Positions 1 to 62,499 of a stretch of 64,000 bases of DNA are shown piece by piece. Under the pieces are notes generated by a model, which was not told the origin of the DNA, made no database searches, and saw only the letters and a list, made by a program, of their open reading frames with translations. Source of the stretch: Heterodontus francisci (Eukaryota); contig NC_090408.1 of the NCBI RefSeq assembly GCF_036365525.1, positions 31,674,269 to 31,738,268 of the forward strand, in the 5' to 3' direction. The number at the start of each line of letters is the position of its first letter. Position 1 is the first letter of the stretch. The position numbers and the translations under genes are program-made.

Positions 1-490
1 CCGGAGCTCTACTCACTCACACGGAACCGCAGGACCAGGGACTGTACCCACTCACTCACACCGAACCGCAGGACCAGGGACTGTCCACACTCACTCACAC
101 GGAACCGCAGGACCAGGGACTGTACACACTCACTCAGACCGAACCGCAGGACCAGGGACTGTACACACTCACTCACACGGAACCGCAGGTCCAGGGACTG
201 TACACACTTACTCACACGGAACTGCAGGACCAGGGACTGTACACACTCACTCACACGGAACCGCAGGACCAGGGACTGTACACACTCACTTACACGGAAC
301 CGCAGGACCAGGGTCTGTACACACTCACTCATGCGGAACAACACGGCCAGGGACTGTACACACTCAGTCACACAAACCACAGGGCCAGGGATTGTACACA
401 CTCACTCACACGGAACCAAAGGGCCAGGGACTGTACACACTCACTCACACGGAACCACACGGCCAGAGACTGTATACACACTCATTCACA
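1..490. repeat. 39-bp tandem minisatellite (GGAACCGCAGGACCAGGGACTGTACACACTCACTCACAC)n, ~12 copies, intronic, truncated by the window edge
   Basis: Unit directly visible; it explains the 13-aa periodic ORF 9..401 (RFRVSECVQSLVL). Confidence 0.95.
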
Positions 491-671
491 CATCAAAAGT
501 ACTTCATTGACTGTTAAGCATCTGAGATGTCTGATGGTCGTGAAAGGTCTGATGGTCGTACAAACACAAGTCTTTTAAATTTTTGTTATTACCAGCATTG
601 TCCATTATCTCAGTGATAGCAATGTATGGCACAATCAGGCCAGTTTAAATACACTGGAGTTAAACAGGTAC

Positions 672-2730: not shown

Positions 2731-2868
2731 CAAATCTGCGACCTTTCATCAGAACTGAAACATTAACTCTGCTTCTCTTTCCACAGATGCTGCCAGACCT
2801 GTTGCGTATTTACAGCACTCTGTTTTTATTTCAGATTTCCAGCATCCGCAGTATTTTGCTTTTATTAT
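2731..2868 (+). mobile_element. Penelope-like element terminal repeat (pLTR) fragment with an inverted 5' piece
   Basis: gaaacattaactctg...ccacagatgctgccagacctg...cagatttccagcatccgcagtattttgc matches the other pLTR copies here (30390, 42444, 62364); 2731-2755 is in the opposite orientation. Confidence 0.7.
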
Positions 2869-8747: not shown

Positions 8748-11700
8748 TTTTCTTTATTCATTCATGGGATGTGGGCATCGCTGGCTAGGCCAGCATTTGT
8801 TGCCCATCCCTAATTGCCCTTGAGAAGGTGGTGGTGAGCTGCCTTCTTCATCTGCTGCAGTCCATGTGGGGTAGGGACACCACAGTGCTGTTAGGAAGGG
8901 AGTTCCAGGACTTTGACCCAGCGACAGTGAAGGAACGGCGATATAGTTCCAAGTCAGGATGGTGTGTGGCTTGGAGGGGAACTTGCAGGAGGTGGTATTC
9001 CCACCTATTTGCTGCCCTTGTCCTTCGAGGTGATAGAGGTCGCGGGTTTGGAAGGTGCTGTCTAAGGAGCCTTGGTGAGTTGCTGCAGTGCATCCTGTAG
9101 ATGGTACACACTGCTGCCACTGTGTGTCGGTGGTGGAGGGAGTGAATGTTTGTGGATGGGGTGCCAATCAAGCAGGTTGCTTTGTCCTGGATGATGTTGA
9201 GCTTCTTGAGTGTTGTTGGAGCTGCATCCATCCAAGCAAGTGGAGACTATTCCATAACACTGCTGACTTGTGCCTTGTAGATGTTGGACAGGCTTTGGGG
9301 AGTCAGGAGGTGAGTTACTTGCTGCAGGATTCCTAGCCTCTGACCTGCTCTTGTAACCATGGTATTTATATGGCTATTCCAGTTCAGTTTCTGGTCAATG
9401 GTAACCCCCAGGATGTTGATAGTGGAGGATTCAGCGATGGTAATGCCATTGAATGTCAAGGGGAGATGGTTAGATTCTGTCTCGTTCGAGATGGTCATTG
9501 CCTGGCACTTGTGTGGCATGAATGTTACTTGCCACTTATCAGCCCAAGCCTGTATATTGTCCATGTCGTGCTGCATTTCTACACAGACTGCTTCAATATT
9601 TGAGGAGTTGCGAATGGTGCTGAACATTGTGCAATCATCAGCGAACATCCCCACTTCTGACGTTATGATTGAAGGAAGGTCATTGATGAAGCAGCTGAAG
9701 ATGGTTGGGCCAAGGACACTACCCTGAGGAACTCCTGCAGTGATGTCCTGGAGCTCAGATGATTGACTTCCAACAACCACAACCATCTTCCTTTCCGCTA
9801 GGTATGACTCCAACCAGCCGAGAGTTTTTCCCCGATTCCTATTAACTTCACTTTTGCTAGTGCTCCTTGATGCCATACTCTGTCAAATGTTGCCTTGATG
9901 TCAAGAGCAGTCTCTCTCACCTCATCTCTTGAGTTCAGCTCTTTTGTCCCTGTTTGAACCAAGGCTGTAATGAGGTCAGGAGCTGAGTGGCCGTGGCAGA
10001 ACCCAAACTAAGCAGCACTAAGCATTATCGACGACCCCTTCCATCATTTTACTGATGATTGAGAGTAAACTGATGGGGCAGTAATTGACCAGGTTGAACT
10101 TGTCCTGCTTTTTGTGTACAGGACATACCTGGGTAATTTTCCACATTTCCAGTGTTGTAGCTGTACTGGAACAGCTTGGCTAGGGATGTGGCAAGTTCTG
10201 GAGCACATGTCTTCAATACTATTGCCGTAATGTTGTCAGGGCCCATAGCCTTTGCAGTATTCAGTCCTGTCAATTGTTTCTTGAGATCACACAGAATGAA
10301 TCAAATTGGCTGAAGTCTGGCAGCTGTGATGCTGGGGACATCAGGAGGAGGCTGAGATAGATCATCAATTCGGCAGCTTTGGCTGAAGATTGTTGCAAGT
10401 GCTTCAGCCTTATCTTTTGCACTGATGTGATGGACTCCCCCATCATTGAGGATGGGGATATTTGTGGAGCCACCTCCTCCAGTTCGTTGTTTAATTGTCT
10501 ACCACCACTCATGACTGGGTGTGCAGGACTGCAGAGCTTAGATCTGATCCATTGGGTATGAGATCACTTAGCTCTGTCTATCGCATGCTGCTTACGCAGT
10601 TTGGCACGCAAGTTGTCCTGGCTTGTAGCTTCACCAGGTTGACACTTCATTTTGAGGTATGCCTGGTGCTGCTCCTGACATGCCCTCCTGCACCCTTCAT
10701 TGGACCAGGGTTGGTCTCCTGGCTTGATGGTACTGGTAGAATGGGGGATATGCTGGGCCATGAGGTTACAGATTGTGGTTGAGTACAGTTCTGCTGCTGC
10801 TGAAGGCCCACAGCACCTCATGGATGCCCAGTTTTGCATTGCTAGATCTGTTTGAAATCTATCCCATTTAGCACGGTGGTAGTGCCACACAACACGATGG
10901 AGGGTATCCTCAATGTGAAGGCGGGACTTCGTCTCCACAAGGACTGTGCGGTGGTCACTCCTACCAATACTGTCATGGACAGATGCATCAGTGGTAGTCA
11001 GATTGGTGAGGATGAAGTCAAGTATGTTTTTCCCTCTTGTTGCTTCCCTCACCACCTGCCGCAGACCCAGTCTAGCAGCTATGTCCTTTAGGACTTGGCC
11101 AGATCGGTCAGTCGTGGTGCTACCGAGCCACTCTTAGTGATGAACATAGAAGTCTCCCACCCAGAGTACATTTTGTGTCCTTGCCACCCTCAGTGCTTCC
11201 TCCAAGTGGTGTTCAACATGGAGGAGTACTGATTCATCAGCTGAGAGAGGGCGGCAAGTGGTATTCAGCAGGAGGTTTCATTGCCCATGTTTGACCTGAT
11301 GCCACAAGACTTCATGGGGTCTGCAGTTGATGTTGAGGACACCCAGGGCGACTCCCTCCTGACAGTATGCCACTGTGCCACCACCTCTGTTGCATCTGTC
11401 CTGCTGGTGGAACAGGACCTACCCAGGGATTGTGATGGCAGTTTCTGGGACATTGTCTGTAAGGTCTGATTCCATGAGTATGATTATGTCAGGCTGTCAC
11501 TTGACTAGTCTGTGGGACAGCTCTCCCAACTTTGGCACAAGCCTCCATATGTTAGTAAGGAGGACTTTGCAGGGTTGACAGGGCTGGGCTTGCCGTTGTC
11601 GTTTCCGGTGCCTAGGTCGATGCCGGGTGGTCCATCCAGTTTCATTTCTTATTGACTTCGTAGCGGTTAGGTACAACTGAGTTTCTTGCTAGGCTATTTC

Positions 11701-11987
11701 AGAGGACATTTAAGAGTCAACCACATTGCTGTGGGTCTGGAGTCACATGTAGGCCAGACCTGGTAAGGACAGCAGATTTCCTTCCCTTGAGGACATTAGT
11801 GTCCAGATGGGTTGTTACGACAATCAACAATGGTTTCATGGCAATCATTAGACTAGGTTTTTAATTCCAGATTTATTAATTGAATTCAAATTCCACCTTC
11901 TGCTGTGGTGGGATTCGAATCCATGTCAATACCCTGGGTCTCTGGGTTACTAGTCCAGTGACAATACCATTATGCCACCGCCTCCCC
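8748..11987 (-). mobile_element. Near full-length CR1-group non-LTR retrotransposon (APE endonuclease + RT, frameshifted) with a tRNA-like SINE head
   Basis: EN motifs (QPDIIIL.ES, TRGKNILDFIL, GRSDH) and RT motifs (GVPQGSVLGP, FADD) in ORFs 10564-11055, 9247-9876, 8848-9231; 5' end has A/B-box-like GGTGGCATAATGG and GGATTCGAATCCC; 3' end GAATGAATAAAGAAAA. Confidence 0.92.
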
Positions 11988-12384: not shown

Positions 12385-13395
12385 TCTCCAATTAAATATT
12401 GGGAAGAGCAAAGCCATGGTCTTCAGGCCCCACTACAAACTCCATTCTCTAGCCACCAATTCTATCCCCTCCCTGGCCACTGTGAGGCTGAACCACACCA
12501 TTTGCAACCTCAGCATCTTACTTGACCCTGAGCTGAGCTCCTGACCTCATATCCACTCCATCACCAAGCCCACCTATTTCCATCTTTGTAAGATCGCCTG
12601 TCTCCTGCCTCAGACCATCTGCAACTGAAACCCTCATCCATGCTTTTGTTTCATCCAGATTTGACTATTCCAATACTCTCCTGGCTGGTCTCCTGTCTTC
12701 CATCCTCCATAAAGTCCAGCTCATCCAAAGCCCTGCTATCCATATCCTTACTCACACCAAGTCCTGTTCATGGATAACCCCTGTGCTTGCTCACTGACCT
12801 ACGCTGACTCCTCGTGCAGCAACACCTCAAATTTAAAATTCTCATCCGAGCATTCAAATCTGTCCATAGCCTCATCCTTCCATATCTCTGTTACTTCCTC
12901 TAGCACTATAAGCCTCTAAGAATGCTGCATTCCTCCAATTCTGGCCTCTTTTGCATCCCTGATTTCCTTTGCCCCTCCATTGTCGACTGTGCCTTCAGCT
13001 ATCCAGGCTCTAGAATTTCCCCCATAAATCTCTTCACCTGTTTCCTCTTTTAAGATGTGCCTTAAAACCTACCTCTTTGACCTGTTCTAATATATGGATA
13101 CAATACTTCAGAGGCAATTATTGGAAGGAAAGATCGATGGAAAACTTAGGAGAGGGAAGCAGAGAAGAAAATGAATGACAGATATAATGGACTGGTTGCA
13201 GCTGACCTATGCAGAATGTGTAAGGACAGCACAGGGCAGACAGAGGTGGAAATCCATGACAGTCAACCTTCTGGGATGAAGATGACACCAACGAACGAAT
13301 GAATATTACCTTATCTGGTTCAGTGTCAAATTTCGTCTGGTAAATCTCATGTGAAGGCCTTGGGAGGTGCTATATAAATGGAAGTTTTGTTGTTT
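12385..13395 (+). mobile_element. Degraded L2-type LINE 3' fragment, interrupted by an RTE fragment
   Basis: ETLIHAFVSSRFDYSNTLLAGL-like coding remnants; tail ...gtgctatataaatggaagttttgttgtt. Confidence 0.75.
13094..13301 (+). mobile_element. RTE-clade (BovB-like) 3' fragment nested in the L2
   Basis: Encodes LLEGKIDGKLRRGKQRRK*MTDIMDW; tail (ACGA)n/GAAT; possible AATAT TSD (13089-13093, 13302-13306). Confidence 0.7.
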
Positions 13396-17149: not shown

Positions 17150-17557
17150 GGGGAGATGGTGGCTCAGTAGTAATGTCACTGAATGAATAATCCAGACGCC
17201 CAGGCTAATGCCTTGGGGACACGGGTTCAAATTTCATCACAGCACCTGGTGGAATTTAAATTCAATTAATTAATAAAAATCTAGAATTGAAAGCTAGTTT
17301 CGGTAACGTTGCCATGAAACGATCATCGATTGTCATAAAAGCCCTTCTGGTTCACCAGTGCCCTTTAGGGAAGAAAATCTGCCATCCTTACCTGGTCTGG
17401 CCTACAAATGACTCCAGACCCACTGCAATGTGGTTGACTCTTAACTGCCCTCTGAAATGGCCTAGCAAGCCACTCAGTTGTCAAGGGAAATTAGGGATGG
17501 TCGACAAATGCTGGCCTTGCCAGTGACACCCACCTCCCATGAAAGAATAAAAAGAAA
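17150..17557 (+). mobile_element. tRNA-headed SINE sharing both its head and tail with the 8748-11987 LINE
   Basis: Core ...aaatctgccatccttacctggtctggcctac...cactcagttg joined directly to tcaaggg.aattagggatgg...cccatgaaagaataaaaag. Confidence 0.85.
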
Positions 17558-19545: not shown

Positions 19546-19654
19546 CGCATAGCATCACATGGAGCCTGTATAACTCTCAAAGATAATGCAAGACAAAACA
19601 TTATAAGAAATATAAATTTCAGTATCTGTCTGTTAATAACTGCATTTTAAAAAT

Positions 19655-19900
19655 TAATTCTTGGGATGTGGGCATCATTGGCAAGATTGGCATTTATTGC
19701 TCATTCCTAGTTACATAGAATTTGATACAACAACATAGCCTACTAGGTCATTTCAGAGGGCAGTTAAGAGTCACTAACATTGGCATGGGACTGAAGTCAC
19801 ATACAGGCCAGATCATCCAAGGGATGCAGGTTGCCTTCCATAAAGAACATTAGCAAACCAGCTGTTTATTTTTAATGACAATCCGATAGCTTCACGGTTA
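19655..19900 (-). mobile_element. Degraded copy of the tRNA-headed SINE family (as 17150)
   Basis: gggatgtgggcatc...catttcagagggcagttaagagtc. Confidence 0.7.
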
Positions 19901-22945: not shown

Positions 22946-23049
22946 GTAAGAGCCTCTTTGTGTTATTGAAAACTTTCAATAACTGATTAGACAGTGTTGA
23001 AACTTCCTATAGTCAGGAATACATATACCTCCAGTATAATTTCAGTTGA

Positions 23050-23785
23050 AGTCACACACCATCCTGACTTGGAAATGTATTGCCATCCCTTCGTCATCAC
23101 TGGGGTAAAATCTTGGAACTCCCTACCTAGCAGCAATGAGGGAGTACTTTCACCTCAGGGACAGCAGCAGTTCAAGAAGGCGGCTCATCACCATCTTTTT
23201 TCTTTCTTGGGATTTGAGTGTCACTGGCAAGGCCAGTATTTGTTGCCATCCCTAATTGCCCTTGAGAAGTTGGTGATGAATTGCCATCTTGAACATTGCA
23301 ATCCATCTGTTGTAGGTATACCTACAGTGCTACCAGGAAGGGAGTTCCAAGTTTTTGACCCAGCGACCGTGAAGGAGCAGCAAGATACTTCCAAGTCAGG
23401 ATAGTGTGTGACTTGGAGGGGAACTTGCATGTGCTGGTGTTCCCATGCGTCTGCTGCACTTGATCTTCTAAATGGTACAGGTGGTGGGTTTGGAAGGTGC
23501 TGTTGAAGGAACCTTGGCGAGTTGCTGCAGTGCATCTTGCAAAGGGTACATGCTCCTGGCATTGTGCACTGGTGGTGGAAGGAGTGAATTCTTAAGGTGG
23601 TGGGTGGGGTGCTGGTCAAGTTGGCTGCTTTATCCTGGATGGTCTCAAGTGTTGTTGGAGCTGCACTTATCCAGATAAGTGGAGAGTATTCCATCGCACC
23701 CGCATTTCCCTAGGATGATTAGGAATGTGCAATAAATGCTGGCCTTGTCAGCAATGCCTACATTCCCTGAATGAATAAAGTAAAA
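23050..23785. mobile_element. Two nested, oppositely oriented 3' fragments of the 8748-11987 LINE family
   Basis: Plus-strand piece 23050-23195 and its tail 23705-23785 are split by a minus-strand copy 23197-23700 (ORF 23221..23694). Confidence 0.78.
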
Positions 23786-25939: not shown

Positions 25940-26330
25940 TGGGGAGACGGTGGCATAGTGGTAATGGTCGCTGGAGTAGTAATCCACAGGCCCAGGCTAA
26001 TGCGGTGGGGACCCTGGTTCAAATCCCACCATGGCAGCTGGTGGAATTTAAATTCAATTAATTTAATAAAAATCTGGAATCAGTTTCATGGCCCTAGTAC
26101 TATCATTTATTGCAGTAAAAACCCATCTAGTTCATGTCCTTTAGGAAAGGAAATATGCTGTCCTTGCCTGATTTGGCCTACCTGAGACTCCAGATCCATA
26201 GCAATGTGGTTGACTCTTAACTGCACTCTGAAATGGCCAACAAGCCACTCAGTTCAAGGGCAATTAGGGGTGGGTAACAAATGCTGGCCTGCCAGCGACG
26301 CTCACATCATGTGAAAGAATAAAAAAAATA
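25940..26330 (+). mobile_element. tRNA-headed SINE (same family as 17150)
   Basis: ggggagacggtggcatagtgg...ggttcaaatcccacc...cactcagttcaagggcaattaggg...gaaagaataaaaaaaa. Confidence 0.85.
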
Positions 26331-29390: not shown

Positions 29391-30389
29391 GAATGTACAA
29401 TGAATAATTTTAAACTGTATTATACATTTTTATACTCTTGAACTGAACGTGGAGTTTGTTAGTAAGCTGTAGAACAGCACTTGCCTAGTAATGTCTCAAA
29501 GCATTAGCTGTACCCTGCATAAAGTACAGGAAAGTCTTTCTTGCTTTTAATGTAAATATTAACCCAAGGGCTTAATAGATCAGATTGAGGGCCGTTTTCA
29601 GCCTATAAAGTAAATTTATTCTTCCTTGGGTTACTGAAATCACTTCAGTAGAAATTTTCCTGCAGCTTTTATGGCTTCTATATTATAACTACCCTGTAAC
29701 CCAACCTGTGGGAAGTATTTATATAATATATGTTATACTTATAGGCACCTGATTGATGGGATTTGCTTTGTGCGATATTTAACTATGGAAATAATTCCAA
29801 GAGTGATGAGTATTTCCAGCCTGTAAATTTTCTAAAGTAATTTTAGATTTTGACCTATTTGATGATACTAAGGTATGGCATCAATATAATTGATTAAGGG
29901 GATAAGATGTTTAGCAAATTAAATCTCCATCGCTACGTCCCAGTGTTGTTTAATCTAACAGGGTACACCCAAAATCGAATAACAGCAGGTCGTGCTATTC
30001 ATCCAGTGCCTACTTGGAGTTTTAATCTGTTTGTTTTGTTCTGGTTCCAGTTTACCTCAACATCGATCATTTTCTATGAATATTTCATTACCAGCTAAAA
30101 ATTCCTTGAAACTGATGTAATTTCAATGTTGTGACTTTGGTAGATCAAATATTGCCTAGTTTGTTTAAAGGGCAATGGTTATTTAAATTTCTTTACCACT
30201 TTTACTTCAAACAAAACCAGGTTCACATTGGTGAGGGGGTGTGGGTTGGAGAAAGTTCACTTTGGTTTTGGGGTGCTTGGTAGAATATCTTTCCAGATTG
30301 AGTATTTGACACAAGTCAGTTATTTGCAAAACCATACCTGTACTGGCTTTCTATGTTGAGTTGCAATGGAAGGCCAGATTCTACCTATA

Positions 30390-30940
30390 ATAAAAACAGA
30401 AAGTGCTGGAAAAAATCAGCATGTCTGTCAGCATCTGTGGAGAGAGAAGTAGAGTTAACATTTCAGGTCAGTGACCCTTCTTCAGAACTGGCAGATATAA
30501 GAAATGTAAAAGATTTTAAGCAAGTAAAGTGGTGGTGGGGCAAGAGATAACAAAAGAGAAGATATTGATAGGACAAGGTCTCAGAATAGCTGACCAGAAG
30601 GTCATGGAGCAAAGGCAAACAATATGTGCTGAATCACAAAGAATTAGTACAGATAGGGTGTTAATGGACTGAAAACTGAACAGCCGCAAATACAAACATG
30701 AAAAAGCAATGGGTAGGCACAGTAGAAACAAACTGAACAAACTGAAACAAGCACAAAAAATAAAAGAAAAAATAACTAAAGATGAAAGTAAAACGAGGGG
30801 CCCGGTCATGCTCTGAAATTATTGAACTCAATGTTCAGTCTGGCAGGCTGTAGCGCGCCTAATCAGTAAATGAGATGCTGTTCCTTGAGCTTGTGTTGAT
30901 GTTCATTGGAATACTGCAGCAATCCCAGGACAGAGACCTT
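30390..30940 (-). mobile_element. Penelope-like element 3' end (GIY-YIG C-terminus and pLTR)
   Basis: Minus-strand remnants LGLLQYSNEHQHKLKEQHLIY*LGALQPARLNIEFNNF; pLTR with CTGAAGA...GAAA. Confidence 0.82.
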
Positions 30941-36034: not shown

Positions 36035-37205
36035 AATTTTTGATGAAGGAAATGCAGTGGATGTTGTTTATATGGATTTTAAAAAAGCGTTTGATAAGGT
36101 ACCACTTAAAAGGATGGTTAACAAAATTGAGGCTCTTGGATTAGGAGGTTCAGTGTCCAGTTGGATAAAAAATTGGCTTAAGGACAGCAAACAGCGAATC
36201 ATGGTAAATGGTTGTTTTTCAGACGGGAGGATGGTAAACAGTGGTGTTCCCCAAGGGTCAGTGCCAGGACCACTTTTTTTTTGCTATATATAACGTGGAT
36301 CTTGGAATACAGAGTAGAATTTCAAAATTTGCCAATGACACCAAACGTGAAGGTGTGGCAAACATGATCTGAACCACCTGCAACAGGATGCAGAGAGGTG
36401 ATAGATGGAATTTAATCCTGACAACTGAGAGGTGATGCATTTTGGCAGAAGGAGTAGGGAGAGGCAATAAGTACTTAATGGGACAGTTCTAAAGAGTGTG
36501 CAGAAACAGGGACCAAGGAGTGCATGTGCATTGATCTTTGAAGGTGGCAGGGCATATTGAGAGAATGGTTAGCAAAGCATATGGGATTTTGGGCTTCATA
36601 AATATAGACATAGAGTACAAAAGCAGGGAAGTTATGCTGAACCTTCATAAAGCTCTGGTTAAAGTGGAGTATTGCATCCATTTCTGGTCACCACTCTTTA
36701 GGAAGGATGTGAGAGTCCTTGAGAGAGTGCAGAAGAGATTTACCAGAATGGTTCCAGCGATGGAGGATATTAGTTACGAGGTTAGGTTGGAAAAGCTGGG
36801 GTTGTTCTCCTTAGAACAAAGGAGATTGAGGGGAGATTTAATGGAAGTGTACAAGATTATGACAGACTTAGATAAGTCAGACAAGAAAAAATAGTTCCCG
36901 TTAACTAATGGTACAAGGACTAGTGGACACGAATTGAATGTTTTGGGCAAGAGATGCAGGGGGAATATGAGGAAGACCATTTTTACGCAGTGGGTGGTAA
37001 TGACCTGGAACTTACTGCCCACAAAGATTGTGGAAGCAGAGATGATCAATAACTTCAAAAGTAAATTGGATGGTCCATTTGAAAAAAATAAACTTGCAGT
37101 GCTATGGGGATTGAGCGGGGGGGAATGGCACTGACTGGATAGCTCCGTGGAGAGCAGGCATGGACTTGATGGGCCGAATGGTCTCCACCTGTGCTGTAAA
37201 TGACT
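36035..37205 (+). mobile_element. CR1 RT/3' fragment
   Basis: ORFs DVVYMDFKKAFDKVP...SGVPQGSV and FWSPLFRKDV...LRGDLMEVYKIM; tail gggccgaatgg...ctgtgctgtaaatgact. Confidence 0.9.
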
Positions 37206-40900: not shown

Positions 40901-42443
40901 GCGCAATGAAATGCTACATTACCCCACTTAAGTGGATGGCCTTATTTAAACAATATGACTCGGCATTTTATCCTATAGCCCAGGGCACATTCTCCTCTTC
41001 TGCAGCATTTTGCTGACTGCTTCCAGCTTTTACAGCTCTTTTTAAAAACAAAACTTGCCCAGCATCAGCTTTTAGCCAAAACTGACTCCCAACATTCCCC
41101 CGCCCTCTTTCTCCTCTTTTCCCGCCCCCTTCCCCCCAAACCTTTCTCCCTCACCCCCCCCCCCCCCCCCCAAACGCGCGCGCACGCAAGCAAGCACAGG
41201 TCCTGCTGAGTTTGAATGATTGTTGCAGCAGAAATGTGTATGAGCTGCCATTGAAAAGTCAAACAATCTTTCATTGTCTCCAGAATGCTGAAACTTAATC
41301 TACACCTTTGCTGTGATCAAAGTTTATAGAGATATTGCCATTAGTTGCTTAAGCAAAAACATCTTTTAGAAGATAACAAAAGTTGGTTAAAAATACAAAC
41401 CCTATTCGTGTTTATTTGTTTTGTAACTTTGATTTTAAATACAAGATCTGATGGTTAAAGAATCCCTGCTTAAGAGATTTTTGTATGCAAGTGAAACTTT
41501 AATCTAGAGCTCCAATGTTATTGGTCAGCCAGAGCCTGATTTGCCTACAATACAACAGCGACAACCTTTTAAAAGAACATCATTGGTGGGATTGTGCTTT
41601 GGGATGTCCTAAGTGCACGTTAAGTGCTCTGTTGACCCATGAGTTTATAGCCCTGCTATGATATATTCATATAATGCATAAAACTGCTCTGGGATTGCTG
41701 GTCTCATCTAGTTGGTAAAGTAGGCTAACCATTTATAGTACTTAAACATGTAATCAGGACCAGTCCAAAGGGCAGCACTGCGTACCACTGTCACCCTAAC
41801 GAAGACATTACTACAATTCCTCCCCCTCTAGAGGAGGGCAACAGTGATACATAAATGGTCCAATCATCCTAGGAAATGTACAAAATTAAAAAAAAAACCT
41901 AACTCATATCAGTGTTTCAGTCTATGTGGAATTGTAAGAACTGTTTAGAAATCGTGATGCAGAGGCAGGAAACAACCCACTCGGTCTTATTCGGCAAACT
42001 TGATAATGAACCCCTATTTACCTTCTGTTTCGACTATTAGGAGAGATGAATCATCATGTGATTTTAAATGAGCAGTTGTCTGAATAAAGAGCTTTTTCAT
42101 TAGGTGTTTGAGCGCATAAGGATGTGACAAAGGTGCACTTTAATCACACCAAAGCGGATTGTTGTTTATGCGGCAATGGCATTGAATCCTCCTTGTGTGT
42201 GTCAGTCACTGTCTCCTAAAGACTTTGATTTCAAAGGAACTTTTGTACCTTATGCTGTACAAGAGGCACTCTGCTATCTCAAAGCTCTTTCCAGCTAATT
42301 CATCTCTCTTTCATTCCCAGCAAATCAATCAGTTTTAATTGGATCTCCTCTGTAAAATAATGGTAGCTTTTACTGCCTGCAGCCACTCAGCTTGTATGTG
42401 TGATTTCTTCATTTGATAAAGAACCAACAGTAGCAAGTAATAG

Positions 42444-42570
42444 AAGCAAAATACTGTGGATGCTGGAAATCTGAAATAAAAACCAAGTGCTGGAAATGCT
42501 CAGCAGGTCTGGCAACAACTGTGGAGAGAGTGAGTTCATGTTTCAGGTCTGTGATCTTTGATCAGAACTA
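42444..42570 (-). mobile_element. Penelope pLTR fragment
   Basis: aagcaaaatactgtggatgctggaaatctgaaataaaa...tttcaggtctgtgatctttgatcagaact. Confidence 0.75.
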
Positions 42571-45312: not shown

Positions 45313-45675
45313 TTTTATTCGTTCGTGAGATGTGGGCATCGCTGGCAACACTGGCATTTATTGCCCAACCCTTATTGCCTTCAAAGAAGGTGGCAGTGAG
45401 CTGCCACCTTGATTACAACAGAGTGGCTTGCTAAGCCATTTCAGAGAGTCTGCAGTCGCATGTAGGCCAGACTGGGTAAGGACGGCATCTTTCCTTCCCT
45501 AAATGACAGTGAGTCTGGTAGTTTCATGGTAACCAGCTTTTTATTCCTGATTTATTTAATTATCTGAATTTAAATTCCCCAGCTGCCGTGGTGAGATTTG
45601 AACTCCTGTCTCTGGACCATTACTCTAGGCCTCTGAACTACTAGTCCGGTAACACAACCATGATGCTACCACACC
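45313..45675 (-). mobile_element. tRNA-headed SINE variant with a longer LINE-derived tail
   Basis: Same head and core as 17150; tail additionally keeps gcagctcactgccaccttc, the end of the LINE ORF. Confidence 0.75.
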
Positions 45676-45679
45676 CTTT

Positions 45680-47287
45680 TTTTAGAATTAGAACATTACA
45701 GCGCAGTACAGGCCCTTCGGCCCTCGATGTTGCGCCGACCTGTGAAACCATCTGACCTACACTATTCCATTTTCATCCATATGTCTATCCAATGACCACT
45801 TAAATGCCCTTAAAGTTGGCGAGTCTACTACTGTTGCAGGCAGGGCGTTCCACGCCCCTACTACTCTCTGCGTAAAGAAACTACCTCTGACATCTGTCCT
45901 ATATCATCATCCGAGGAAAAAGACTCTCACTATCCACCCCATCTAACCCTCTGATTATCTTGTATGTCTCTATTAAGTCGCCTCTCCTCCTCCTTCTCTC
46001 TAACGAAAACAACCCCAAGTCCCTCAGCCTTTCCTCGTAAGACCTTCCCTCCATACCAGGCAACATCCTAGTAAATCTCCTCTGCACCCTTTCCAAAGCT
46101 TCCACATCCTTCCTATAATGCGGTGACCAGAACTGCACGCAATACTCAAGGTGCGGCCTCACCAGAGTTTTGTACAGCTGCATCATGACCTCGTGGCTCC
46201 GAAACTCGATCCCCCTACTAATAAAAGCTAACACACCCTATTAACCTGGGTAGCAACTTTCAGGGATTTATGTACCTGGACACCAAGATCTCTCTGTTCA
46301 TCTACACTACCAAGAATCTTCCCATTAGCCCAGTACTCTGCATTGCTGTTACTCCTTCCAAAGTGAATCACCTCACACTTCTCCGCATTAAACTCCATTT
46401 GCCATCTCTCAGCCCAGCTCTGCAGCCTATCTATGTCCCTCTGTACCCTACAACACCCTTCGACACTATCCACAACTCCATCGACCTTCGTGTCATCCGC
46501 AAATTTACTAACCCACCCTTCTACACCCTCATCCAGGTCATTTATAAAAATGACAAACAGCAGTGGCCCCAAAACAGAACCTTGCGGTACACCACTAGTA
46601 ACTAAACTCCAGGATGAACATTTGCCATCGACCACCACCCTCTGTCTTCTTTCAGCTAGCCAATTTCTGATCTAAAGCTCTAAATCACCTTCAACCCCAT
46701 ACTTCCGTATTTTCTGCAATAGCCTACCGTGGGGAACCTTATCAAACGCCTTACTGAAATCCATATACACCACATCCACGGCTTTACCCTCATCCACCTG
46801 TTTGGTCACCTTCTCGAAAAACTCAATAAGGTTTGTGAGGCACGACCTACCTTTCACAAAACCGTGCTGACTATCGCAAATGAACTTATTCTTTTCAAGA
46901 TGATTATAAATCCTATCTCTTATAACCTTTTCCAACATTTTACCCACAACCGAAGTAAGGCTCACAGGTCTATAATTACCAGGGCTGTCTCTACTCCCCT
47001 TCTTGAACAAGGGGACAACATTTGCTATCCTCCAGTCTTCCGGCACTACTCCTGTCGACAATGACGACATAAAGATCAACAACAACGGCTCTGCAATCTC
47101 CTCCCTGGCTTCCCAGAGAATCCTAGGATAAATCCCATCTGGCCCAGGGGACTTATCTATTTTCACACTTTCCAAAATTGCTAACACCTCCTCCTTGTGA
47201 ATCTCAATCCCATCTAGCCTAGTCGGCTGTATCTCAGTAATCTCCTCGACAACATTTTCTTTCTCTACTGTAAATACTGACGAAAAA
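45680..47287 (-). mobile_element. Young 5'-truncated CR1 LINE
   Basis: ORFs 46672-47304, 46228-46638, 45899-46234 (KSPGPDGI, PGNYRPVSLTS, QHGF, FADD); tail ...gtaatgttctaattctaa; small internal deletions. Confidence 0.95.
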
Positions 47288-47804
47288 AATGTAATAAATT
47301 TCATATGTAATAAATTGTTAATCTACAAGAGTAATTGAGAGAACCTGGTGCACTGTTTGCATGGTGCGTAAACCTAATTTTATAGCCACCCTGTCCAATG
47401 TAACATGCTTTGTTTAAAAAAAAATACAATTTTTTTCAATACTGGCAGAAACCTGCAAACATTTGCAGTCAAATTATTATCTTTATTGCAACAGTACTTC
47501 TTTAAATTAAGGATTTCTTATTTCACCAAAACTTTTAACAGAATCAAAACTTCTCACTCTGGAAAAAGCTGCGTAAAGCTGTCCAAGACCTAGGAATATA
47601 AAAACAAATTTTGTCAAGTGTCTGGCCTTGTGACTTGTTTATAGTCATTGAATATGAAAGTCTAATTGGAAACTGTTTTCACCTGAGTTGAAAAGGCAGG
47701 TTTACATCTGATGGGCTCAATATTGTTTGAGGAATAAACACTCTTTCCTTGAAATCCGCATCTATCATCGAAGAAAACAGCTTCCTAACTACCAATCTTC
47801 CATG

Positions 47805-49110
47805 ATGAACTTATTAGTGAGAGACAGCATGGTTTTGTGAAGGGGAGGTCGTGTCTTACTAATTTGATTGAGTTTTTTGAGGAAGTGACGAAGATGATTG
47901 ATGAAGGAAGGGCAGTGGATGTTATCTATATGGACTTTAGTAAACCCTTTAACAAGGTCCCGCATGGCAGACTGGTACAAAAGGTGAAGTCACACGGGAT
48001 CAGAGGTGAGCTGGAAAGATGGATACAGAACTAGCTCGGGCATAGAAGACAGAGGGTATCAGTGGATGGGTGTTTTTCTGAATGGAGGGATGTGAGTAGT
48101 GGTGTTCCGCAGGGATCAGTGCTGGGACCTTTGCTGTTTGTAGTATATATAAATGATTTGGAGGAAAATGTAGCTGGTCTGATTAGTTAGTTTGCGGACG
48201 ATACAAAGGTTGGTGGAGTTGCGGATAATGATGAGGATTGTCAGAGGATACAGCAGGATATAGATCGGTTGGAGACTTGGGCGGAGAAATGGCAGATGGA
48301 GTTTAATCCGGACAAATGTGAGGTAATGAATTTTGGAAGGTCTAATGCAGGTGGGAGGTATACAGTAAATGGCAGAACCCTTAGGAGTATTGACAGGCAG
48401 AGAGATCTGGGCGTACAGGTCCACAGATCACTGAAAGTGGCAACGTAGGTGGATAAGGTAGTCAAGAAGGCATACAGCATGCTTGCCTTCATCGGTCGAG
48501 GCATAGAGTATAAAAATTGGCAAGTCATGTTGCAGCTGTACAGAACCTTAGTTTGGCCACACTTGGAATATTGCATGCAATTCTGGTCGCCACACTACCA
48601 GAAGGACGTGGAGGCTTTGGAGAGGGTACAGAGGAGGTTTACCAGGATATTGCCTGGTCTGGAAGGCATTAGCTATGAGGAGAGGTTGGAAAAACTCGGA
48701 TTGTTTTCACTGGAACGACGGAGGTGGAGATGCGACATGATAGAGGTTTACAAAGTTATGAGCGGCATGGACAGAGTGGATAGTCAGAAGCTTTTTTCTA
48801 GGGTGGAAGCGTCAGTTACTAGGGGACATAGGTTTAAGGTGCAAGGGGCAAAGTTTAGAGGGGATGTGCGAGGCAAGTCTTTTTACACAGAGGGTGGTGA
48901 GTGCCTGGAACTTGCTGCCAGGGGAGGTGGTAGAAGCAGATACGATAGCAACGTTTAAGAGGCATCTTGACAAATACATGAATAGGAATGGAATAGAGGG
49001 ATATGGGCCCCGGAAGTGCAGAAGGTGTTAGTTTAGGCAGGCATCAAGATCGGCGCAGGCTTGGAGGGCCGAATGGCCTGTTCCTGTGCTGTACTGTTCT
49101 TTGTTCTTGA
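47805..49110 (+). mobile_element. Young 5'-truncated CR1 LINE (different subfamily)
   Basis: QHGFVKGRSCLTNL, FADD, ORF 48449..48958; tail ctgtactgttctttgttctt. Confidence 0.95.
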
Positions 49111-53745: not shown

Positions 53746-55689
53746 TTCTCTGGTCTTTTTTTTGTTCCTCACTGGCACTCTGCATTTCTCAATCCCCTCG
53801 TTATTGTAGGTTAACCATCTTGAAATTTAATTCTCCTAAGATCAGATGGGTACAAATCAACAGCATGCTTATCATCATCATTATTAAATATTTAGATAAT
53901 ACAATTTTTCAAAACTCCAGCATTTTTTGTTTTGTTCATTTTAAAATCTGTTTTTCTTTATCATTTTCCTTCATTACTTATAGTTTTCTAATGCACATTT
54001 TGAGAGAAGAGTTGAATGGTGAACATGATTTTTAATTTTAATGGGCAGTAGATAGCGGATTCAGTGGTGAAGAGGGCAAAGAGGAAATGGCAAATGTGTT
54101 AAGCAGATTCCTGTTATGTGTTTACCAGTGAAGTCTGAGATTAAGTTGCAGACGCAGTGTTTTTGTCTCGGGTTTCTCTGGGATACTTGATGTACAATGA
54201 ATAATGGATGGAATGCACAGAGGGAAATCAAACAGCAGATCACATGGCTGTAATGTAGCCTGCTCAGCATTTCATCCATTTTTAAATTAATGGATGGAAA
54301 GGTCCTTTGGACTGGTATGTAAAGTCTGGTATATGGCACACATGCCCTGTACAATTAACTTTATTTTCTGCGTCATGGTTTTTGAGTCCACATTTACATG
54401 ATGCATACTTCTCTAGTAAAACCATTACAGGTCTTCAGCCAACGCATGGTATAGTTGCACTCTCCCCGATGGTTCACCCACAGTTATTTCCACCCCATTT
54501 TTGTGCTGATTTTCATGTTTTTTGCACAACTTGGATAGCCTGGTTCTGCATTCCTGCTTGCTCATCCCATTTGCAGTTGCCCATTTCCAATTGCAGATAG
54601 AGCCTACATACTCCCCACTCATTACTTTCCTTGCTGCTAATTGTTGGGCCTTAACACTAGCACTGTTGGTACATCTGACCTGTTTGTTGCAGCCCAGTTA
54701 TGATTTTGGTCTCTTCTGTCTTCCGGTTCTGTTTAGTACACTTCAGGTCTCGTGCACCCACATTACAACCCCAAACCTCATGACACCAATTCCCAACTCT
54801 CAACATTCTGACCCCATAGCCCCAAACCCCGGACCTCCAACTGCTCCACAAACCCCATCCCTCCTTGGTCTGGTCTAATGCATCCTCTGGTGGATTTCCA
54901 GCACTGACCTAATAGCATTAGTTCATTACAAATACTTGAACTGATTATTGTGTGCCAACATTTCCCCCAGATTATGTGGTGATAATGATGGTGAAACTGT
55001 CACAGTTCATCATCTTTACTCCATTGGAACTGATGGTGACTTCTGGAGTCTGCACATGTGCAAAATAATGTGGAAATCCCGAAGTTGTTGCCAGTGCTTC
55101 TATGCTTCTCCATGGGGGGTCACCCCCCCCCCCCCCCCCACCACCCTCCAAGACTTCAATGGATTTCCCATTGATTGTATTGATGAGGACTTCCACCCTT
55201 GCGCTGTCAGTCTTAACTAATACAACGGGGACCCCAGCTTGGCTAAAATAAAAGTTAGAGGCACTTTGCCCTAAAGATTTAATGGTGCCTGACCCTACAA
55301 TATGTTGGGAGGAAGCTCCTGCTCCTGCTCATTTCCAGCTGAATTGCATCACTCCACCTGCCATACTGGTGTAGACAAAAATAAAGGCTTTTGGGATAAT
55401 GCTTGAAACAGGCATTAGCCCTTCTGCATATGCAAGTAAGAGGCTTGGTGCCTGTTTGAGGTCCTCTCTGCAATATTTGTTTGCCCTGTTGCAGCAGCCA
55501 CCATTTCTTAAGATGGAAACAAGTTTAGGTCTATGGTGAGTGTACTTGGATGTGCGAGTGAAACATCTGTGAGAACGTGTGAGCATATGGGCGAATACGT
55601 ATATATGCTTATATACATTGGGGTGTATATGTCTCTTAATTAAGGATCCATGCATCATATTTGACCCCGAGATGAACTTCTGGCCACAT

Positions 55690-57195
55690 ATCCCCACCAT
55701 CACCATGACTGCTTATTTCCACCGTCGTAACATGTCCTGACTCTGTCCCTGCCTCAGTTCATCTGCTGAAACGCACATCCATGCCTTTGTTACCTCTAGA
55801 TTTGCTGTCCTAGTTAGCTTACTATCTTCCACCCTCCATAAACAAACCTCATCCAAAACTGCTGCCTGTATCCAAACTTGCATCAGGTTCCATTCACCCT
55901 TCATCCCTGTGCTCACTGATCTACATTGGCTTCTGGTCATGCAATGCTGCAATTTTAAAATTCTCCTTCTTGGTTTCAATTCCCTCTGTGGCCTCAGTCC
56001 TCCCTATGTCTGTAACCTCTTCGAGCCCTACAACCCTCTTGGGCTTTCCCAGTCGCTCTACTGTTGGTGGCTGTGCCTTCAGCTGTCGCGGCCCTAAGCT
56101 CTGGAATTCCCTCCCTAAACCTCTGCCACTCTACCTCTCTTTCCTCCTTTAAGATGCTCCTTGATACCTATCTCTGCCCTAATATCTTGTCATGCAGACC
56201 TCCACCTGCCAAGAATGAGGCATATCATTTTGTCATATGAACATTGATTTTAAACTGTTGCTGGAACAAGGAAGTGACTTGTTAAACAGATCAGCCGTGG
56301 CTAGAAAAAAACATTTACATACTAACAGTGCTTGTGGAGACAAAGGACCATTCTCTGACACATTCACCCCACAATGGACTTTGATCACTAGACATTGAAG
56401 GTGAGGAAGCTCACATCCCAGGATGAAAGCTAAAATGGCTGAATCCACAAACCGATAAGGTCAAACCAGCTAGTCACATGATTAACCTGCTGGGCAACCT
56501 GAGTTTTTTTTTGAATTGAAGGCAGTTTGAGAGAGAGATAGACTGTTTGCTCCTGGACTGTAAAGACCTCCTGTCTGGCTCGCCACAGCCTCTCCTGTCT
56601 GCTCCCATCGCTTTCTCATGGAACTCCAAGTCCACTGAAGACGTGAACCTCGAGAGAAAAGTCTCCTACATCAAACAAGGTTTAAGAATAATACTGGGCC
56701 CCAACAAAAAGCAAGATCTACCTACAATCAAGGACTCTACAGCGAGCTCGAAGAACAGTAACCAAAACCATCTTCAGATAGTGCCTCAAACTTTTTCACT
56801 TTATTTCTTCTCTTCTGTCTCTATCTGCATGTGTGTTTATCACATATGCATGCTAACATGGGTGCGCTGCATATCCAGATGCGTTAACTGAATTAGAGTT
56901 TAAGTTTAATAAAAGTTCAACCTTCTTCAAACCTAAGAAAAGGCTGGTTTTTTGGCCTTATAATTGGAAAGCAGTGAACAAGGATTCACCAAGGGGGAGC
57001 TAAAACATGGTGTGTTTAAAATTAAACCCCATTACGGTAAGACCAGGTGAAGGCTGAGAGGGAACCCTGGACCCTTCTCACCTGGTCATAACAATCTCAT
57101 GTACATGACGTCAAGTTTTGTTTGATAATGCTCCTGTGAAGAGCCATGGGATGTTTTACTATGATGAGGGCACTATATGAATTCAAGTGGTTGTT
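55690..57195 (+). mobile_element. L2-type LINE 3' fragment split by a solo LTR
   Basis: AETHIHAFVTSR, LTDLHWL and GPKLWNSLP remnants before 56188; tail resumes after 57093. Confidence 0.7.
56188..57093 (+). mobile_element. Solo LTR (family of 1552-2459)
   Basis: TGTCATG...TAACA, 4-bp TSD ATCT on both sides. Confidence 0.88.
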
Positions 57196-60636: not shown

Positions 60637-62320
60637 TGTCTGTGGGAGCAAAAAATACTAAAAGTAACATTATTGGCATGTTTTCACCTTTAGCATTCCT
60701 GATACAGTGCTGCATGTAGCAGGCTTGTGTCTAAATTTCCGCCATTGACTCCTAGATCAAGAAACCCTGTGCCTGGACAACTAAATAGGGAAACATAACC
60801 CCATGTTAAAATTAGCTTGCACTTTCTGTTTTTATTTCAGATTTCCAGCATCCCCAGTATTTTTCTTTTGTTCAAAACTAATGTTCTTGACCCCTTGCTT
60901 CAGTGATATATTTCAGAGATATTGGGGTTGATTCAATGAATTAGTACTTTTGGTGCAGAGCTTCGTGTGGTGGGAGTGCATGACAGGTATTTGGTTGCAC
61001 AGGTCAGCTCATCTCTGCATCTGTATCCCTGTTGGGCACAGGGCTTTAACTCATGTTATTTGTTATTCCTTGACAATACCATTACTGAAGTTAGCACTTT
61101 TTGCTTACTGAAAATCTTTAGGTTTATCTGAGGTTTTTAAATTCTAAATTACTTCTAAATTATTAGGATGTTGTTATTAGAAATGGGGAAAAATAGCCTA
61201 GAATTCACCTTTTCAAATATCATCCTCCCTGGCATTAGAGTCACACTTGAATACTCCTCCCTCTTCCATTGTTGAGCAATAGCTCTATCTTTTCTTGTCA
61301 TACTAGACTGCTGGCCTTCAAAGCTGTGGCATCCGATATTATCTTTATATGATGGGCATTCTGTTTCACTTATTTCATATAGTCCCAGTGGGATTGTATT
61401 CATATTAGCATCATTAGCAGATACACAATGAGTTTAAAAAGATAAAAATCTTACAAAACTGAGCAATCACTTGTATCTGCAAAGTTATCTCATCAAATGC
61501 AATCATTGAAATCTGTCCTGTAATCTATTCCACAATGTGCTACTGTTTGCACCTAATCTTAGATTTCTTGCAGTACTGGCAGTGACTAAAAGCTACGGTG
61601 TTTGACATTGAATTGGGAGCTATGCTACAGCGTGACAGTTAATCTTAATGCCAGTTTTTACCAATTAGTATTTGAATGGGATGCTGAATCACTGTAGTTG
61701 CCTGTTGGCCAGTGCTGGTCACTGTGGGTGCAATGCTCATTTAAAGATCTGACTGCGCATCGCCACCTTTTCAATGTTGCATCTGTCAACAGCACTGAGA
61801 GCTTGAGCACTTCATATTAAAATTAGAATTTGCACTTGAGAAATTAATATATAACAATGAATAAAATATGGTTCAGCTGTGTTGAGACCTCTGATCATCA
61901 TCTTCACCGTTGCTTGTTATTTTGTGTTTTGTGAACCGTATTGGTTTTATGGCTTTGATTGGGCTTTTGTAGCAAATAGAACAAGTGGCTGCAAAATGTA
62001 GGTAGTGCTGTTCTGTAGAGTTAGAAATAAGTAACTATTAATGAAGCGTAGTCTATCAAAGCTTAAATTGTACAATATGTTTAATTTCTCATCACTTACT
62101 GATCCAAAAACATAATTGAGGGTGAGCCACTGCACCGAGCAATTTTTAATGGACGTCGTCTTAGAGAAGAAAAAAAACAAATGATTGAGAGAAAGCCATC
62201 CTTTTAATTCATTATATCATTACATCCAGTGACAAATGGGAAATAATTTAAATCAGTTAACTGTGCTAAGATAATCATACGTGCAACCCTTTCATTACTG
62301 CGGTAACTCCTCCTCTTTGC

Positions 62321-62499
62321 TTGTTAACTACATCAAACTAGAAAGGAGGGTGATATACACTTAAATAAAAGCAAAATACTGCGGATGCTGGAAATCTGAA
62401 ACAAAAACAAGAAATGCTGGATTCACTCAGCAGGTCTGGCAGCATCTGTATAAGTATACACTTATATCACCCTCCTTTCTAGTTTGATGTAGTTAACAA
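62321..62499. repeat. Perfect 37-bp inverted repeat enclosing a Penelope pLTR fragment
   Basis: 62321-62357 is the exact reverse complement of 62463-62499; pLTR piece at ~62364-62450. Confidence 0.92.

What the first reader, a model, noticed from the sequence alone, without database searches (positions are those of the whole stretch)
8748..11987. Autonomous-type LINE with a tRNA-SINE head, and local SINEs that look like its internal-deletion derivatives
Seen: the 5' ~310 nt of this EN-RT element (11987-11677) is a tRNA-like A/B-box head plus a conserved core ending ...ctcagttg. It runs into the endonuclease region with no room for an ORF1. The SINEs at 17150 and 25940 consist of this same head joined directly to the LINE's last ~75 nt (tcaagggcaattagggatggg...gaataaa). 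Copies at 45313 and 19655 appear to use different junctions, one keeping the end of the LINE ORF. Established: SINEs usually share only a 3' tail with their partner LINE. Inference: either a LINE acquired a Pol III/tRNA-derived head and repeatedly spawned SINEs by deletion, or a SINE captured an EN-RT ORF.
Basis: partly seen in the sequence, partly recalled or inferred. Interest (0 to 1): 0.7.

Follow-up and report, generated by a model that had tools for sequence, protein, structure and literature searches.

The report
Shark Zenon LINE with tRNA head
This is a dead copy of a common shark-and-ray jumping gene that codes for its own copying enzyme. It starts with the tRNA-type promoter of short non-coding repeats and lacks the T-runs that stop RNA polymerase III, so it may be a protein-coding retrotransposon made by that polymerase.

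Summary
11987-8748 (-) is a decayed single-ORF EN-RT LINE that begins with a tRNA-like A/B-box head and a ~230-nt core. Four short copies in the window join core to tail. It is the elasmobranch CR1-Zenon family of Stuart et al. 2026 (PMC13343379). All 7 of its shark/ray consensus sequences, extended outward from RT seeds, start with this head and junction; the 3 hagfish/coelacanth Zenons do not. So the junction is family-wide, and the missing ORF1 is normal for Zenon. That paper's text never mentions tRNA or Pol III. New here: the sense strand has no TTTT in 3240 nt. The longest TTTT-free stretch of the window (3303 nt; next 1442) is this element, and TTT is its most depleted trimer (6 vs 17-32 expected); 39 related LINE ORFs all have such runs. 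This fits Pol III read-through, but transcription and translation are untested (about 0.6). The SINEs show at least three junction types, favouring deletion from older Zenon masters (about 0.65); a SINE-first origin is not excluded.

The parts
8748..11987 (-). Full-length, decayed copy of an elasmobranch CR1-Zenon LINE (3240 nt); no run of 4 or more T on the sense strand
11900..11987 (-). tRNA-like head: A box 11977-11967, anticodon-arm-like stem with AGT, B box 11921-11911
11674..11899 (-). Core (rest of the 5'UTR), its 3' half nearly invariant between the shark and ray consensuses; not recognisably Deu, Meta or UCON3
11566..11673 (-). Linker: variable A-rich spacer, conserved ATG at 11645 (not in the EN frame), and basic N-terminal codons in the EN frame
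8810..11565 (-). Single broken ORF: APE endonuclease (PF03372, PF14529), reverse transcriptase (PF00078) and C-terminal region; stop at 8812-8810
8748..8830 (-). 3' tail: stable stem-loop (z -3.1), gaataaa and short A-rich end; shared with the SINEs
17150..17551 (+). Full SINE: head+core joined to tail at LINE positions 11673/8822 (junction 17473-17487)
   Evidence: same joint
25941..26329 (+). Full SINE: head+core joined to tail at LINE positions 11675/8822 (junction 26248-26260)
   Evidence: same joint
45314..45680 (-). SINE with another junction: keeps the first linker bases, resumes about 8848 in the ORF end, TCAA on both sides; internal deletions in the core
19653..19900 (-). 5'-truncated core+tail copy with a third junction: keeps about 8 linker bases, short filler, tail from about 8816
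23194..23694 (-). 5'-truncated copy of the same LINE (3' 500 nt, 78%)

Best explanation
An ancestral elasmobranch CR1-Zenon LINE (single EN-RT ORF, no ORF1) acquired a tRNA-derived 5' end before sharks and rays split, and kept it. The A/B boxes serve as the element's internal promoter. Pol III starts at the first base, which regenerates the promoter in each full-length copy, and reads 3.2 kb because selection has purged T-runs from the sense strand. The conserved core next to the ORF start probably serves translation of an uncapped RNA. The protein binds the 3' stem-loop and inserts copies by target-primed reverse transcription. A deletion that joins the end of the core to the tail leaves a complete tRNA-SINE (promoter plus RT-recognition tail); this happened more than once, in masters older than the subfamily of this copy. 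Shown: family-wide head (about 0.98), Zenon identity (about 0.95), T-run depletion, several junctions. Inferred: Pol III use (about 0.6), deletion origin of the SINEs (about 0.65), role of the core (speculative).
For: Head in 7 of 7 elasmobranch Zenon consensuses, 0 of 3 hagfish/coelacanth ones, first 400 nt read by eye; those consensuses were seeded on RT and extended. Depth continuous over linker and head, and one divergent contig spans 11489-11801. Whale shark model P0142 aligns in one piece to 11697-11371, across the junction. 0 TTTT runs vs 5.4 expected; TTT 6 vs 32 (base composition, P 2e-8) or 16.8 (dinucleotide, P 0.0024), lowest of 64 trimers; A, C and G runs near expectation. Longest TTTT-free stretch on either strand of the window is 12005-8703 (3303 nt; next 1442; 902 runs in all). 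39 of 39 related LINE ORFs have TTTT (lowest obs/exp 0.76); three CR1 fragments in this window have 6-9 each. Phe codons TTT 1: TTC 13 (P 0.019 against other T/C pairs); Phe 1.7% vs 2.1-6.2% in 41 in-clade proteins. The 400-nt 5' ends of the 7 headed consensuses show no TTTT by eye, the 3 unheaded ones do. Copies 45313 and 19655 keep linker bases beyond the common junction, 45313 with TCAA microhomology. Zenon precedent for deletion derivatives.
Against: No transcription data: X17 is only guessed to be RNA and contigs show no start, strand or cap. With stricter nulls the absence of TTTT alone is not significant (P 0.11 dinucleotide null; P 0.09 synonymous-codon shuffle), though these nulls absorb the very bias tested. 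The T test rests on one full copy; only 1 control locus (L001) lies in the same clade, and the in-clade Phe values are not independent of each other. Published definitions have LINEs made by Pol II, and A/B boxes are called an indication, not proof; Pol III RNAs are described as short. An uncapped 3.2-kb RNA must still be translated, and the one conserved ATG is out of frame with EN. The window's SINE heads carry Squalus-type letters, unlike this LINE copy, which also fits an independent old SINE line. Breakpoints cluster within about 10 nt on the head side.
Confidence: 0.55

Rival explanations
1. Pol II LINE with a borrowed 5' end: the tRNA/SINE-derived head is fixed in the family but works as (or sits in) a Pol II promoter or 5'UTR, or copies are read from host promoters. 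T-poverty comes from avoiding splice acceptors or premature polyadenylation, or from codon bias. Pol III makes only the short derivatives.
For: LINEs are defined as Pol II elements. A tRNA-like sequence in an RTE family and SINE sequence inside an Ingi 5'UTR are on record with no Pol III claim. TTTT absence is not significant under dinucleotide or codon-shuffle nulls. A capped RNA solves translation.
Against: The depletion is specific to T homopolymers on the sense strand and ends at the element's borders. CR1 copies in the same window and 39 related ORFs lack it. The element starts about 10 nt before the A box, as a Pol III internal promoter would set it. It does not explain why A and B boxes are kept in sharks and a ray.
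Confidence: 0.3
2. SINE first: an old tRNA-SINE with its own body and a Zenon-derived tail gave its 5' part to a Zenon LINE by template switching. The short elements are mostly descendants of that parental SINE, not deletion products. This concerns origin only and is compatible with Pol III transcription.
For: Zenon-tailed tRNA-SINEs arise often (bivalves; ZenoSINE). Non-elasmobranch Zenons lack the head. The window's SINE heads are 18-23% diverged from this LINE and from each other and are of Squalus type at five sites read by eye.
Against: At least three junction types in four copies; two keep linker bases that continue as in the LINE, one with microhomology. The core matched none of three published SINE bodies. 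It ends where in-clade ORFs put their first Met (tblastn extrapolation 11646-11688), as a native 5'UTR would.
Confidence: 0.3
3. Chance composite: a 5'-truncated LINE landed in or beside a SINE at this locus only.
For: None beyond the abundance of both repeats; no convincing target-site duplication was found (best 6 nt, 7 nt off the start).
Against: The same junction is in 7 of 7 published consensuses from 5 species, in whale shark gene models and in contigs of public runs.
Confidence: 0.01

Closest known systems
Elasmobranch CR1-Zenon LINEs (CarCar, RhiTyp, ScyCan, HypSab, SquAca Zenon; Stuart et al. 2026, PMC13343379; passages, sections 21 and 32, supplement rows cut at 400 nt)
   Same: Same 5' head, core, linker and EN start; most are 3.1-3.3 kb long; single APE-RT ORF, no ORF1, A-rich end. 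It is this family.
   Different: Nothing in structure. The paper's main text has 0 hits for tRNA, promoter, Pol III, polymerase or deletion and 1 for SINE (a reference title), so the head, the T-run purge and the SINE derivatives are not described there.
Persaeus SIDEs of lepidopteran Zenon (Wang et al. 2019, PMC6740152; parts 1-3 of 5 read)
   Same: Short elements made of the Zenon 5'UTR plus the ORF end and 3'UTR, arising several times by internal deletion, with microhomology at the break.
   Different: Persaeus has no tRNA homology and no Pol III promoter, so it is not a SINE; here the deletion product is a tRNA-SINE because the parent already has the head.
Bipartite SINEs from RTE/Vingi LINEs (Bov-tA, SINE2_Gav, CoeSINE4; Kojima 2018, PMC5786205; parts 1-4 of 5 read)
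   Same: tRNA head + LINE 5' part + LINE 3' part.
   Different: There the head is added after deletion and the parent LINE has none; the clades listed are RTE, Ingi, Vingi and R2. Here the full-length coding element has the head.
RTE-1_DAn and relatives (one sentence in PMC5786205)
   Same: A LINE family holding a tRNA-like sequence.
   Different: Other clade; position, function and SINE derivatives are not described in the text read.
Shark SINEs SacSINE1 (Deu, L2 tail, 463 bp) and HE1 (V-SINE, HER1 partner) (PMC5499810 parts 1-2, PMC2746220 and PMC3747384 passages)
   Same: tRNA-headed SINEs of cartilaginous fish with a LINE-derived tail.
   Different: They share only a tail with other LINEs. 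The core here does not match the Deu alignment seen. HE1 could not be compared in any call.

Membership tests
CR1-Zenon LINE (elasmobranch) | Sequence identity to the published elasmobranch Zenon consensuses | tested here: met
   A 14-nt linker motif of the window hits 3 supplement rows (the two shown are Zenon) and a core motif hits 7 rows, all elasmobranch Zenon; first 400 nt agree by eye. No percent identity computed.
CR1-Zenon LINE (elasmobranch) | Single ORF with APE endonuclease and RT, no ORF1 | tested here: met
   Pfam hits; 5'UTR holds only short frames, longest 46 codons; ORF colinear with intact 959-976 aa relatives.
CR1-Zenon LINE (elasmobranch) | Poly-A tail | tested here: inconclusive
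   Ends in gaataaa plus 5-9 A-rich bases here and in the SINEs; loose ends in runs are A-rich on the sense strand but of low agreement.
CR1-Zenon LINE (elasmobranch) | RT falls in the Zenon clade, apart from canonical CR1 | tested here: inconclusive
SINE2 (tRNA-SINE), for the short copies | Short, tRNA-derived head with A/B boxes, LINE-derived tail | tested here: met
   About 390-400 nt; A+B boxes; relaxed ARAGORN fold in 2 of 3 SINE heads; tail 83-89% identical to the LINE's in the three headed copies. The 60% identity to a named tRNA asked by SINEBase was not tested.
SINE2 (tRNA-SINE), for the short copies | Transcribed by Pol III; at least 100 copies | not testable with these tools
   No genome held; contigs show recurrent head-tail joints in 4 runs but give no copy number.
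DeuSINE / SacSINE1 | Deu central domain | tested here: not met
   By-eye comparison with the published Deu alignment; two 12-13-nt Deu motifs match the core no better than shuffles (P 0.65). A coarse test.
MetaSINE / UCON3-SINE | Meta or UCON3 body | tested here: not met
   By eye; one motif each, P 0.95 and 0.12. A coarse test.
V-SINE (HE1) / CORE-SINE | V or CORE domain | not tested
   SINEBase, Luchetti 2017 and part of the MetaSINE supplements could not be read.
SIDE (short internally deleted element) | 5' and 3' parts both homologous to one partner LINE, joined by deletion | tested here: met
   Direction of descent is inferred, not shown.
Pol III transcription unit (full-length LINE) | Internal A/B boxes and no T-run terminator before the 3' end | tested here: met
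Pol III transcription unit (full-length LINE) | Pol III/TFIIIC occupancy; uncapped full-length RNA | not testable with these tools
   No raw-read RNA run was offered.

The most novel reading that the evidence does not exclude
Elasmobranch Zenon is an autonomous, protein-coding retrotransposon transcribed over its whole 3.2 kb by RNA polymerase III from a captured tRNA promoter, with its coding sequence reshaped to avoid terminators and its core acting as a cap-independent translation element. It is a LINE-SINE intermediate that yields finished SINEs by one deletion.
Probability: 0.5. Interest if true: 0.88.

Novelty: new variant of a known kind. Interest (0 to 1): 0.72.

Why it matters
Textbook definitions split LINEs (Pol II, coding) from SINEs (Pol III, non-coding). 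A family with hundreds to thousands of near-full-length copies per shark or ray genome (for example 2313, 1419 and 612 listed) that has a tRNA promoter and no terminators would be a natural long, translated Pol III RNA. It raises a testable question: how is an uncapped 3.2-kb transcript translated? It also gives a living case of a SINE body being a LINE 5'UTR, the hypothesis of Kojima 2018, by a route not listed there: head first, deletion second. In practice shark repeat annotation will mislabel these heads and SINEs, and gene models already pick them up.

Tried and rejected
No genome is held for the window, so copies could not be counted. A 26-nt linker pattern found 0 matches in viral contigs and 0 in metagenome contigs. 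The protein alignment found no relatives in viral contigs. In metagenomes it gave 80 loci (best 80 of 540 confirmed); none resembles the head or tail (best E 0.08), and 3 relaxed ARAGORN calls lie inside or beside the RT match, not upstream. Only L001 is in-clade: about 1 kb of 5' sequence, no ORF1-sized forward frame, no A+B pair. My first guess that the core is the Deu domain was dropped. Rfam gave only chance-level hits. Head and core fold no better than shuffles (z 0.4-0.8). No reliable target-site duplication. PDB and ESM Atlas gave only generic EN-RT matches. The longer-protein search with the EN segment found 1 protein, a horn shark gene model with a TE piece. Joints at 11685-11710 are mostly flagged 'between: not known' and may be alignment effects of diverged cores; I do not count them as separate deletions. 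That the head or Pol III idea is not in print rests on 10 library searches and term searches in PMC13343379 and bioRxiv 10.1101/443036. Repbase, Dfam and most subscription papers were not searchable, and unread supplements may hold this SINE under a name.
Full report
What is there. The minus strand from 11987 to 8748 holds a 3240-nt element. It opens with an A box (11977-11967) and a B box (11921-11911). Such a pair occurs three times in the window, here and at the SINE starts 17160 and 25951, against 0.02 expected from 100 dinucleotide-matched simulations. ARAGORN finds no tRNA at default threshold, but at a relaxed one it folds 3 of 4 heads as a tRNA with anticodon AGT, scores 87-92. From recall only, the long extra arm looks like a serine-type tRNA. 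A core follows to 11674, then a ~108-nt linker, then an APE endonuclease from 11565 and a reverse transcriptase (Pfam). Intact relatives of 959-976 aa align along the whole ORF, which ends at a stop at 8812-8810. The copy is dead: five internal stops in the two segments translated and several frameshifts. The last 80 nt form a stable stem-loop (z -3.1, 0 of 200 shuffles). Four short copies join core to tail.

Is the junction a local accident? No. (a) Contigs of four public runs (three organisms by code; X1 and X17 are one sample, which may be the window's own) give summed depth, in X1, of 0.72 million over the linker bin, 0.89 million over the next EN bin, 0.58-0.92 million over the two head bins and 14 beyond 12014. 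One 368-nt contig with 50 differences spans 11489-11801, and 613 loose ends sit at 11987 in X5. No loose end at the junction is among the 24 listed, but 17633 were not shown, and depth is not copy number. (b) Two whale shark gene models carry core-derived peptide ahead of EN; P0142 aligns in one piece to 11697-11371. (c) The supplement of Stuart et al. 2026 (PMC13343379) lists 10 Zenon consensuses. The 7 from white shark, whale shark, catshark, dogfish (3) and stingray (species read from the row codes) all begin with this head and core and run through the same junction; the 2 hagfish and 1 coelacanth rows do not, judged by eye on the 400 nt shown. They were seeded on the RT domain and extended outward, so the head was reached from LINE-only sequence.

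What it is. It is the elasmobranch CR1-Zenon family. The paper says Zenon elements lack ORF1 and have a poly-A tail, and that the elasmobranch ones had not been deposited in a repeat database. My own tree puts the element in a 62-row clade apart from the window's CR1-like copies but held no named Zenon. In-clade proteins begin with Met and a short basic leader, like the basic codons in the linker here. So 'no room for ORF1' is ordinary. The head is not: the paper's main text has no hit for tRNA, promoter, Pol III or deletion. The one in-clade locus with DNA, L001, has no such head.

The T-run signal. Pol III stops at runs of about four or more T (established knowledge). The sense strand has none in 3240 nt (5.4 expected from composition) and only six TTT (32 expected from composition, P 2e-8; 16.8 from dinucleotides, P 0.0024). 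TTT is the lowest of 64 trimers, while AAA, CCC and GGG are not significantly off. Of 902 T-runs on the two strands of the window, the longest gap is 12005-8703, 3303 nt, which is this element; the next is 1442. All 39 related ORFs of at least 2.4 kb have T-runs (lowest obs/exp 0.76), and three CR1 fragments here have 6-9 each. Phe is coded TTC 13 times and TTT once (P 0.019), and Phe is 1.7% against 2.1-6.2% in 41 in-clade proteins. By eye the 400-nt starts of the 7 headed consensuses have no TTTT and the 3 unheaded ones do. Against this: for TTTT alone the dinucleotide null gives P 0.11 and a synonymous-codon shuffle P 0.09; the test rests on one full copy; most controls are out of clade; and SINEBase warns that A/B boxes are no proof (passages). 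I found the signal, before seeing the earlier AI notes with the same idea on other copies; those are unchecked and are not independent support.

The SINEs. 17150 joins LINE position 11673 to 8822 and 25940 joins 11675 to 8822. Both joints recur in public contigs: the first in X1 (10) and X17 (8) only, the second in all four runs (5, 12, 15, 4); 15 of 14228 joints were shown. 45313 keeps the first linker bases and resumes near 8848, with TCAA on both sides. 19655, which lacks the head, keeps about 8 linker bases as in the white shark consensus, then a short filler. Keeping LINE-side bases past the common junction, at different points, is what repeated deletion predicts. Zenon does this in Lepidoptera, where the products lack any Pol III promoter (PMC6740152). 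But the three full SINE heads are 18-23% diverged from this LINE and from each other. At five sites read by eye they mostly side with the dogfish consensuses, while this LINE sides with white shark, catshark or whale shark. They are therefore not products of this subfamily. They came from older masters or from an old SINE line that once gave the LINE its head; Zenon-tailed SINEs are common elsewhere (passages). I put repeated deletion at about 0.65.

How it most likely works. Shown: a fixed tRNA-type head on a coding LINE across sharks and a ray, a strand-specific purge of T-runs, and short head-tail elements with several junctions. Inferred: Pol III starts at the first base and reads through; the protein recognises the tail; deletion yields SINEs that keep both ends. 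Open: translation. Pol III RNA is uncapped (established knowledge). The ATG after the A-rich spacer is present in 6 of 7 consensuses but, in this copy and in the stingray row counted by hand, opens a short frame that overlaps EN out of frame. The region between core and ATG varies in length among species, so it is not coding. A frameshift, a non-AUG start or re-initiation is needed under any polymerase.

Novelty. The family is known and its consensus sequences are in print. A tRNA-like sequence in a LINE has one passing precedent (RTE-1_DAn), bipartite SINEs are known for RTE and Vingi, and Zenon deletion derivatives are known. I found no description of a tRNA-headed, terminator-free coding LINE or of its SINEs in 10 library searches; Repbase, Dfam and several supplements were out of reach. 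Verdict: a real feature, a new variant of a known kind, interest 0.72; 0.88 if Pol III transcription of the coding RNA is shown.

Papers seen: PMC13343379 (outline, passages, sections 21 and 32, supplement rows); PMC5786205 (parts 1-4 of 5); PMC6740152 (parts 1-3 of 5); PMC5499810 (parts 1-2 of 6); PMC7245038 (passages, supplement 1); passages only of PMC3747384, PMC10886601, PMC2746220, PMC4824008, PMC5753468, PMC3905857, PMC6685494, PMC11481361, PMC3531059 and bioRxiv 10.1101/443036.

Noticed in passing
window 11645-11507 (-): An ATG kept in 6 of 7 elasmobranch Zenon consensuses opens a 46-codon frame that overlaps the start of EN out of frame, here and in the stingray consensus; a whale shark gene model (P0254) starts at it. 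How the EN frame is entered is unexplained.
   Followed up: partly
window 23049-23784: A 5'-truncated Zenon copy (23694-23194, -) has a second Zenon tail on the opposite strand just upstream (23718-23784, +) and an opposite-strand ORF-end fragment just downstream (23049-23197, +).
   Followed up: partly
window 45908-47300 (-), 47795-48805 (+), 36036-36870 (+): RT fragments of another LINE family that groups apart from Zenon (CR1-like by recalled motifs); used as T-run controls.
   Followed up: partly
window 12513-12917 and 55652-56039: Two copies of a further repeat; the first has an open frame (12537-12797) that looks like an L2 C-terminus by recall.
   Followed up: no
window 11-491: Tandem array with a period of about 39 nt (self-match offsets 78, 117, 234).
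   Followed up: no
window 2750-2867, 30389-30489, 42438-42569, 60823-60875, 62361-62449: A short dispersed repeat family with five copies, not classified.
   Followed up: no
L001 390-485: The 5' region of the one in-clade metagenome locus has a two-copy direct repeat of about 55 nt, seen by eye, and no tRNA head.
   Followed up: no
P0003, P0132, P0142, P0254: Horn shark and whale shark gene models include pieces of this LINE, so they are probably false or chimeric models.
   Followed up: no
window 8822 / 11696-11710 (table 5): Runs X5 and X8 show many joints 25-35 nt further inside the core, rare in X1; possibly another SINE subfamily in those organisms, possibly alignment effects.
   Followed up: no
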